NCBI GenBank assembly: GCA_963754655.1
Contig: CAVWGN010000001.1
Coordinates: forward strand, 3,040,001 to 3,104,000
Direction of reading: 5' to 3'
Length of the DNA: 64,000 bases
Source of the DNA: an uncultured Chlamydiae bacterium
Lineage (GTDB): Bacteria > Chlamydiota > Chlamydiia > Chlamydiales > Parachlamydiaceae
Shown here: piece after piece, positions 44,641-45,113 of the stretch
Layout of the letters: the number at the start of each line of letters is the position of its first letter
How positions within the stretch are numbered: the stretch's first letter is position 1
Made by a program: the position numbers and the translations under genes
Notes under the pieces: model-generated
The model's input: the letters and a program-made list of their open reading frames with translations, nothing else
Databases searched by the model: none
Told to the model about the DNA's origin: nothing

Positions 44641-45113
44641 TAAGCTCCTCTCTTAGCTTAAACACATAAGGCCCGAAAGGGGGACATCCACCTATTTTAG
44701 TAAAAAACACCGGGGGTAGGGTGTTAATTTTGTGCAAAAAAACGAGCTTTATTTTTCACAATAATTGGCATAGTTGAATTGAAGGTCGCATGTTTATGCC
44801 GTCCTTTCAGGACTCGATGTTTTTTTGATAGAACCCAGGCCTCCGCTTCGCTGCGACCTGGGCTGTAACATGCCGGCCCTTCAGGCCTTAACAAGAGATG
44901 TTTAAGTCCCTCTTCTATAGTCCCTAAATCATCTTTTTGTTAAGGCCTGAAGGGCCATCATGTTACAGCCCAGGTCGCAGCGAAGCGGAGGCCTGGGTTC
45001 TATCAAAAAAACATCGAGTCCTGAAAGGACGGCATAAACATGCGACCTTCAATTCAACTATGCCAATTATGGTGAAAATAAAGCTCATTTTTTTGCACAA
45101 AATTAACACCCTA
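44641..45113. mobile_element. Palindromic element locus 3: complete element A (44717-45113, one core) preceded by fragments of the F end (44641-44668) and E TIR (44693-44713)
   Basis: TAGGGTGTTAATTTTGTGC...GCACAAAATTAACACCCTA; imperfect flanking duplication ACCGGGGG/ACCCGGGG. Confidence 0.88.

What the first reader, a model, noticed from the sequence alone, without database searches (positions are those of the whole stretch)
44717..45113. Locus-private mutations are mirrored on both arms of each palindrome
Seen: locus 3 has TGTTAATT (others TGTTCATT), a 7-A run and GATGTTTTTTT on both arms. Locus 4 has an extra base (GATAGAAACCC, near 59760 and 60010) on both arms. Locus 5 has GTAATAGGCC/GGCCTATTAC and TAACATG/CATGTTA on both arms. 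At these sites the arms resemble their partner more than the same arm at other loci. Inference: one arm is templated from the other, through hairpin-mediated repair, template switching or a fold-back ssDNA transposition intermediate, or there is strong selection for pairing.
Basis: partly seen in the sequence, partly recalled or inferred. Interest (0 to 1): 0.72.

Follow-up and report, generated by a model that had tools for sequence, protein, structure and literature searches.

The report
Mobile palindromes with self-correcting arms
This 400-base DNA palindrome is one of over a hundred copies in a bacterial genome whose two halves often carry the same rare changes, most likely because one half gets copied onto the other after the copy has landed, a known process seen here on an unusually large scale.

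Summary
Locus 3 is a 397-bp gene-less mobile palindrome (177-bp arms, 42-bp spacer), one of about 116 paired copies. In 66 full-length copies, 92 variants sit on both arms (shuffled mean 15.7, max 31) and 123 on one arm. Of variants unique to one locus, 7 are mirrored and 25 are not (0.02 expected by chance). Every cited motif occurs at 2-21 loci, and locus 3's arms differ at 5 sites. Copying seems to happen in place: one-armed variants are inherited unmirrored, mirroring crosses the element's ends (flanking 9-mers exactly inverted at 20 of 78 loci, exactly direct at 3; a control IS keeps direct ones at 9 of 10), and lopsided ancestors survive. Another genus shows the same pattern, and short-read contigs carry one mirrored base on both arms, so an artefact is unlikely. 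The inner arm is the hairpin end of a Y1 transposase gene. No SbcCD was found. Inverted-repeat homogenisation is known, and this scan already noted the family at other loci of this genome. New variant of a known kind; interest 0.36.

The parts
44717..45113 (.). Whole gene-less palindromic mobile element, locus 3 (397 bp; predicted single-strand DNA hairpin of -221 kcal/mol), between convergent ispF-like and cysJ-like genes
44717..44766 (+). Outer shell, short end: terminal inverted repeat 44717-44735 plus subterminal part; carries the mirrored A at 44726 and the 7-A run 44736-44742
44767..44792 (+). Outer end of the inner core (L-type end); the core is flanked by a 6-bp duplication in the lopsided ancestor at G000:C1:958107
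44793..44894 (+). Three-hairpin module (44801-44813, 44834-44862, 44875-44887), about 90% identical to the DNA just after the stop codon of the Y1 transposase gene at G000:C1:395750-396241; mirrored T at 44821; Rfam Acido-Lenti-1 match at 44834-44888
44895..44936 (+). Conserved asymmetric 42-bp spacer (20 of 42 simple copies identical)
44937..45113 (-). Right arm, reverse complement of the left; mirrored sites at 45010, 45088-45094 and 45104; 5 differences from the left arm
   Evidence: short-read contig over 45088-45182 with no difference
44708..44716 (.). Left target-site remnant (degenerate RCCC-N-GGG-N site); right counterpart at 45114-45122, neither an exact direct nor an exact inverted copy at this locus
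6540..6906 (.). Locus 1: same element, duplicated centre, right arm truncated
33639..34170 (.). Locus 2: same element with an internal repeat, inserted in another hairpin repeat with an exact 9-bp direct duplication
59651..60130 (.). Locus 4: same element; extra A on both arms (also on both arms at G000:C1:2096085); arms differ at 3 other events
62975..63283 (.). Locus 5: shell-less core that still has unlike L and R outer ends, while the R-type inner marker is on both arms (partial conversion)

Best explanation
The element is a gene-less, nested mobile palindrome whose two arms share rare variants far above chance, most likely because, after a copy has inserted, the host now and then copies one arm onto the other (replication template switch or intra-locus gene conversion). 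Shown: the excess sharing; its partial, two-way character; inheritance of one-armed variants; mirroring beyond the element's ends; lopsided ancestral forms. Inferred: the element moves as duplex DNA through its outer terminal repeats, with a 9-bp duplication (transposase not identified). The arms fold into a hairpin on single-stranded DNA at the fork, the nascent strand uses the other arm as template and then switches back. A simple model puts this at about one conversion per site over a copy's life, some 400-600 times the point-mutation rate. The apparent lack of the hairpin nuclease SbcCD would let such long palindromes persist.
For: 92 mirrored against a shuffled mean of 15.7; 7 strictly private mirrored against 0.02 expected. 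Clustering by locus, not side. One-armed variants stay on the same spacer side in sister copies: 5 of 7 two-locus one-armed pairs, 40T at 3 of 3 and 171del at 5 of 6. Flanking 9-mers are exactly inverted at 20 of 78 loci (null mean 2.8, max 9) and exactly direct at 3, while a non-palindromic IS using similar targets keeps exact direct duplications at 9 of 10; flank mirroring correlates with arm identity, rho 0.37, p 0.003. Genome-unique mirrored 20-mers lie in or across the flank at 11 of 79 loci; at C1:874839 host flank and arm are mirrored in one stretch. Two-way mosaics of ancestral L/R markers: outer ends L/L 97, L/R 10, R/R 2; within L/R loci the inner marker is c/c 4, c/r 4, r/r 2. A lopsided shell survives at C1:958107, while 82 of 116 pairs carry the short shell end twice. 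Mirrored private words also occur in other palindrome families of the genome and in genus G016 (2.6 differences within against 9.3 between loci; 1 of 5040 permutations). No SbcD or SbcC match of note. Mechanism in print: PMC5941160 and PMC7202029 (passages).
Against: No orthologous loci in a close strain were available, so no event was polarised in time. The distance effect is mixed: 5 loci with arms over 400 bp apart have 2 mirrored and 32 one-armed events against 90 and 91, but 12 IS-interrupted copies have 10 and 12, and the long arrays could be chimeras of two copies. The 20 inverted flanks are not all independent: 3 also fit a 10-bp direct duplication, some may be the host repeat's own arms, and host plus element may move together. 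Related doublets in G017 (3) and G020 (6) are not homogenised although the arms are close. Template switch and RecA-dependent conversion cannot be told apart here.
Confidence: 0.7

Rival explanations
1. Arms are made alike mainly at transposition: the Y1 (HUH) transposase moves a single-stranded hairpin whose mismatches are repaired, or one arm templates the other, so copies are born symmetric.
For: The inner arm is the end module of a Y1 gene. Six two-locus variants are mirrored at one locus and one-armed at the other. MutS is present. REPINs are thought to move as hairpins (PMC3116915, passages). Hosts are often hairpin repeats of Y1 genes too, so flank mirroring could arise when a host moves.
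Against: One-armed variants are handed to sister copies on the same side. The long element has terminal repeats and 9-bp duplications, unlike HUH insertion (the contrast is from my own knowledge). Y1-oriented mini-elements keep unlike ends in G000 and G020. Mirroring is seen in many families.
Confidence: 0.14
2. Shared ancestry alone: copies descend from a few symmetric masters, and nothing corrects the arms afterwards.
For: This explains much of the raw signal.
Against: It does not explain 7-12 private mirrored variants, inverted flanks or the L/R mosaics, and the masters themselves had to be made symmetric.
Confidence: 0.07
3. Selection for perfect pairing (RNA or DNA hairpin) fixes independent compensatory mutations.
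For: The arm scores above the Rfam threshold for Acido-Lenti-1 (37.6 against 37 bits). REPIN papers speak of compensatory changes (PMC3116915).
Against: Independent recurrence predicts 0.02-0.06 private mirrored events against 7-12 seen. 123 one-armed variants persist in a stem of -221 kcal/mol. Indels and multi-base blocks are mirrored. No enrichment between convergent genes: 20 of 91 against 253 of 1440 gaps.
Confidence: 0.05
4. Assembly or polishing collapsed the two arms into one sequence.
For: The genome's own reads were not seen, run X1 may be its source sample, and one search gave no cover at the private sites tested.
Against: 42 of 66 copies keep arm differences. Short-read contigs anchored in unique flanks on each side of locus 3 match letter for letter, across the mirrored A on both arms and the right 7-T run (records 44476-44732 and 45088-45182, depth 2.4 and 3.6). 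A separately assembled genus shows the pattern, and two others keep unlike arms.
Confidence: 0.04

Closest known systems
Concerted evolution of inverted repeats: quasi-palindrome template switching and arm-to-arm gene conversion (PMC5941160 and PMC7202029, passages read)
   Same: Imperfect inverted repeats become more perfect by copying one arm; either allele can win; one apparent spacer inversion (C1:1051046).
   Different: Bacterial studies concern arms under about 20 bp or single reporters. Here it acts on 177-bp arms in over 100 replicate copies, crosses the element's ends, and seems to have replaced a non-homologous element end.
REPINs with RAYT/TnpA-REP (PMC3116915, PMC3337134, bioRxiv 10.1101/2022.05.22.493013 and 10.1101/119743; passages read)
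   Same: [quoted passage not shown]
   Different: About 300-400 bp rather than about 100; three hairpins per arm; partner scores as IS200-like, not RAYT; wrapped in terminal-repeat shells with 9-bp duplications.
TnpA-Y1 subclass 1.2 (PMC6006769, passages and section 18 read)
   Same: Partner protein P0001 has HIH and YLSSQKEHH, matching the Y---Q--HH signature, plus a C-terminal extension.
   Different: The paper describes the subclass as generally without typical IS200 terminal structures and mostly in Cyanobacteria and Bacteroidetes; here the gene has conserved hairpin ends amplified genome-wide. Supplements were not read.
Bacterial MITEs (terminal inverted repeat, target duplication, no gene; own knowledge)
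   Same: Shell with an 18-19-bp terminal repeat, 9-bp duplication at some sites, and 36-bp minimal forms.
   Different: Both ends are the same end, the whole element is a near-perfect palindrome, and the cognate transposase was not found.

Membership tests
Concerted evolution of inverted repeats | Arms more alike within than between loci | tested here: met
   1.86 against 4.2 events; 92 shared against 15.7
Concerted evolution of inverted repeats | Locus-unique variants on both arms | tested here: met
   7 mirrored against 25 one-armed, 0.02 expected
Concerted evolution of inverted repeats | Acts in place, not only at birth | tested here: inconclusive
   Indirect support from flanks, inheritance and mosaics; no orthologous time series
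Concerted evolution of inverted repeats | Falls with distance between arms | tested here: inconclusive
   Yes for 5 wide-gap loci, no for 12 IS-interrupted loci
Template switching specifically | RecA-independent, strand-biased, raised by loss of ssDNA exonucleases (recalled) | not testable with these tools
   Needs genetics; XseA and MutS are present
REPIN | Two inverted hairpin modules and a spacer forming one long hairpin, extragenic, many copies | tested here: met
REPIN | Same module flanks a Y1 gene | tested here: met
REPIN | Partner is a RAYT (TnpA-REP) | tested here: not met
   NF047646 22.6 bits against cut-off 80; NF033573 (IS200) 64.4 against 55
REPIN | Moved by the Y1 enzyme as single-stranded DNA | not testable with these tools
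   The long form has terminal repeats and target duplications instead
TnpA-Y1 subclass 1.2 (partner gene) | Y---Q--HH motif and C-terminal domain | tested here: met
   Motif seen in P0001; the C-terminal profile itself and a tree with reference sequences were not tested
MITE | Terminal inverted repeats and no gene | tested here: met
MITE | Target-site duplication | tested here: inconclusive
   Exact 9-bp direct at 3 of 78 (5 of 81 in the rougher), near-exact at many, inverted at 20
MITE | Autonomous IS with the same ends | tested here: inconclusive
   Not found in G000 or by exact pattern in two collections

The most novel reading that the evidence does not exclude
Arm-to-arm copying here does more than polish mismatches: it builds new mobile elements. 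A lopsided nest (Y1 hairpin doublet inside a core with unlike ends, inside a shell with unlike ends) was made symmetric layer by layer, whole non-homologous ends being overwritten by the mirror of the other end, and the fully symmetric form then became the dominant family (82 of 116). In a genome without SbcCD, this gives over a hundred natural replicate reporters in which conversion runs at several hundred times the point-mutation rate and erases target-site duplications.
Probability: 0.45. Interest if true: 0.55.

Novelty: new variant of a known kind. Interest (0 to 1): 0.36.

Why it matters
It is a clean natural data set for a known but rarely measured mutational process in bacteria: conversion between long inverted arms, with tract ends and direction readable from markers. 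It offers a non-selective explanation for 'compensatory' changes in REPIN-like hairpins, and a warning for covariation-based RNA discovery, since this DNA module scores as the Rfam family Acido-Lenti-1. If the stepwise symmetrisation holds, it shows one way palindromic MITE or REPIN families are born. It is not a new enzyme system, and the scan has noted the family before.

Tried and rejected
Second read check at C1:512513 (private variants 6G and 28G): run X1 had no contig over these sites, so it is uninformative. No RNA holder was listed. Runs X2, X4 and X6 cover only parts of the repeat and were not used for habitat or strain claims. Orthologous loci in congeners: none of the 3 same-genus genomes searched has the element. 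Cognate transposase of the shell: none found in G000; two ISAs1 fragments lack these ends; exact-pattern scans of genome and metagenome collections gave 0. The first arm comparison in relatives included flanks and blurred the signal; it was redone on the core for G016, G017 and G020, not G015. These doublets were picked from the listed rows, not from all matches. Inverted paralogous gene pairs as transposon-free controls: one pair is more alike toward the centre and the other toward the outside, so no conclusion. My automatic pairing joined unrelated arms at C1:2338519 (dropped; still in 26 and 34) and C1:958207 (never in the full-length set), so 116 is approximate. SbcD across relatives: over the cut-off in 4 of 41 genomes, none of which has the repeat, but most genomes without SbcD lack it too, so its absence is permissive at most. 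Literature searches for this in chlamydiae, or for arm copying across target duplications or MITE birth by it, found no such paper (listings only); subscription journals and supplements were not seen.

Full report
Observation. The window is G000:C1:3040001-3104000. The host is chlamydia-related by inference: the best NCBIfam hit of its SecDF is PRK12911, which I recall as the chlamydial model, and earlier notes say the same. Locus 3 (44717-45113) is a 397-bp palindrome with 177-bp arms and a 42-bp asymmetric spacer. But none is private: the motifs occur at 13, 16, 5, 2, 21 and 11 loci, and locus 3's arms also differ at five events.

Genome-wide test. BLAST gave 367 hits in 143 clusters, 116 of them with a left and a right arm (at least two are mis-paired). 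Sixty-seven have two full arms, 66 after dropping one mis-pair. In these, 92 variant events are on both arms and 123 on one; shuffling partners gives 15.7 shared on average, 31 at most in 10,000. Arms differ by 1.86 events within a locus and 4.2 between loci regardless of side, and 20 of 29 tree cherries are partners. Yet only 28 of 134 arms have their partner as strictly nearest, and 24 of 66 copies have identical arms. Variants unique to one locus are mirrored in 12 of 52 cases among the 66, or 7 of 32 when uniqueness is demanded among all 116; independent recurrence predicts 0.02. An alignment-free count agrees: 20-mers seen exactly twice in the genome, once per arm, lie inside 19 of 79 shelled copies. 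In 35 short-type or partial pairs the core shares 16 events against a shuffled mean of 2.8, max 12.

Artefact. In run X1, contigs anchored in unique DNA on each side of locus 3 match with no difference across the mirrored A on both arms and the right 7-T run. Depth is low (2.4 and 3.6), and X1 may be the source sample. A second check had no cover. In genus G016, seven related doublets differ by 2.6 within and 9.3 between loci (1 of 5040 permutations), whereas 3 doublets of G017 and 6 outward-facing ones of G020 keep unlike arms.

Anatomy. The inner 100 bp of the arm is about 90% identical to the DNA right after the stop codon of a Y1 transposase gene at C1:395750-396241, one of nine Y1 matches. 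The protein passes the IS200 model and fails the RAYT model; it has the Y---Q--HH motif of subclass 1.2 (PMC6006769, passages and section 18). Eight outward-facing mini versions of this unit exist. The inward doublet sits in a core with two unlike ends, L and R, and that core sits in a shell with terminal repeats and 9-bp duplications. At least five kinds of IS have inserted into arms or spacer. The shell's transposase was not found.

When does copying happen? Four lines point to copying in place. First, one-armed variants are inherited on the same spacer side by sister copies (5 of 7 two-locus pairs), so birth does not force symmetry. Second, mirroring crosses the ends: the flanking 9-mers are exactly inverted at 20 of 78 loci (null 2.8) and exactly direct at 3, while a non-palindromic IS with similar targets keeps direct duplications at 9 of 10; copies with mirrored flanks have fewer arm differences. 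Genome-unique mirrored words lie in or across the flank at 11 of 79 loci, and C1:874839 mirrors an aberrant flank and two private arm variants together. Caveats: three of the 20 also fit a 10-bp duplication, hosts have their own arms, and composites may move together. Third, ancestral markers form two-way mosaics: outer ends L/L 97, L/R 10, R/R 2; in L/R loci, R lies on one spacer side in 9 of 10, and the inner marker is c/c 4, c/r 4, r/r 2 (one of the two imperfect). Locus 5 is such a partial conversion. Fourth, C1:958107 keeps a long and a short shell end with a 6-bp duplication round the core; C1:1202033 keeps a remnant and three unfilled shell remnants exist, whereas 82 of 116 pairs carry the short end twice. 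The process is not specific to this family: 214 further mirrored private blocks lie elsewhere, many in other palindrome families (not all classified). Distance dependence is mixed: strong for 5 wide-gap loci, absent for 12 IS-interrupted ones, which may have been interrupted recently.

Mechanism. Most likely host-driven arm-to-arm copying at the replication fork or by intra-locus conversion (0.7). A simple unbiased-conversion model gives about one event per site per copy lifetime and 370-580 times the point-mutation rate; this is a rough inference. SbcD was not found (the control rings in 13 of 14 genomes) and SbcC gave only weak hits, in a genome 96.7% complete; MutS and XseA are present. In E. 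coli SbcCD cuts a 246-bp interrupted palindrome (PMC6061781, passages), so its absence would be permissive; chromosome C1 has 157 sites with long inverted arms. Rivals: symmetrisation at transposition 0.14, ancestry alone 0.07, selection 0.05, artefact 0.04.

What is known. Homogenisation of inverted-repeat arms by template switching or recombination is established (PMC5941160, PMC7202029; passages). Symmetric REPINs and compensatory changes in them are in print (PMC3116915; bioRxiv 10.1101/2022.05.22.493013; 10.1101/119743; PMC3337134; passages only). A later REPIN review had no hits for the stems symmetr, compensat, conversion or template (10.1101/2021.07.10.451892). Five searches found no paper on this family or on arm copying across target duplications (listings only; subscription journals and supplements unseen). 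The element works like a REPIN inside a MITE shell but is not filed as a REPIN, because the partner is not a RAYT.

Verdict. Real, partly mis-described, and explained by a known process acting on an unusual family. New variant of a known kind; interest 0.36.

Noticed in passing
window 44834-44888 (+) and 44943-44997 (-): The hairpin module scores 37.6 bits (gathering 37) for Rfam Acido-Lenti-1, listed as a probable RNA in PMC2864571 (table passage); the family may be the DNA end signal of these Y1 genes.
   Followed up: partly
G000:C1:8131, 553520, 1830119, 2370703, 2762197, 2928528, 2954959, 3110685: A 1.46-kb IS (375-aa ORF) has inserted at the same hairpin position of the arm eight times; two other ISs also use fixed arm positions.
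   Followed up: no
G000:C1:146169-146823, 320712-321369 and similar: Pairs of a 144-bp MITE about 510 bp apart share an outer 9-bp direct duplication, so they move as a composite.
   Followed up: partly
G000:C1:1334333-1334368 and 1366229-1366264: 36-bp minimal elements made only of the two terminal repeats, probably left by deletion of the palindrome's interior.
   Followed up: no
G000:C1:1766865, 2208721, 2994754, 989681, 1026710: Tandem arrays of the centre or of whole arms (up to about seven units) inside single elements.
   Followed up: partly
G000:C1:1100600-1105700 and 1069000-1073400: Inverted paralogous gene pairs about 80% identical; in the first, identity rises to 93-97% near the inner ends, in the second it is highest outside.
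   Followed up: partly
G000:C1:2542121, 2544251, 2548102, 2939324, 2802252, 2429452: Several further Y1 genes of the same type, each with its own hairpin family beside it; these families are the hosts in which the palindrome lands.
   Followed up: partly
G000:C2:23823-24217 and C2:28: The element also sits on the 35-kb second contig, a possible route between genomes.
   Followed up: no
window 60965-62908 (+): 647-aa ORF with internal repeats of about 150 bp (beta-propeller-like; weak 6-phosphogluconolactonase hit) next to locus 5.
   Followed up: no
G000:C1:1904000-1922000: Tandemly repeated block of related repeat-protein genes, each with a shell remnant and an inverted hairpin repeat, peppered with ISs.
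   Followed up: no
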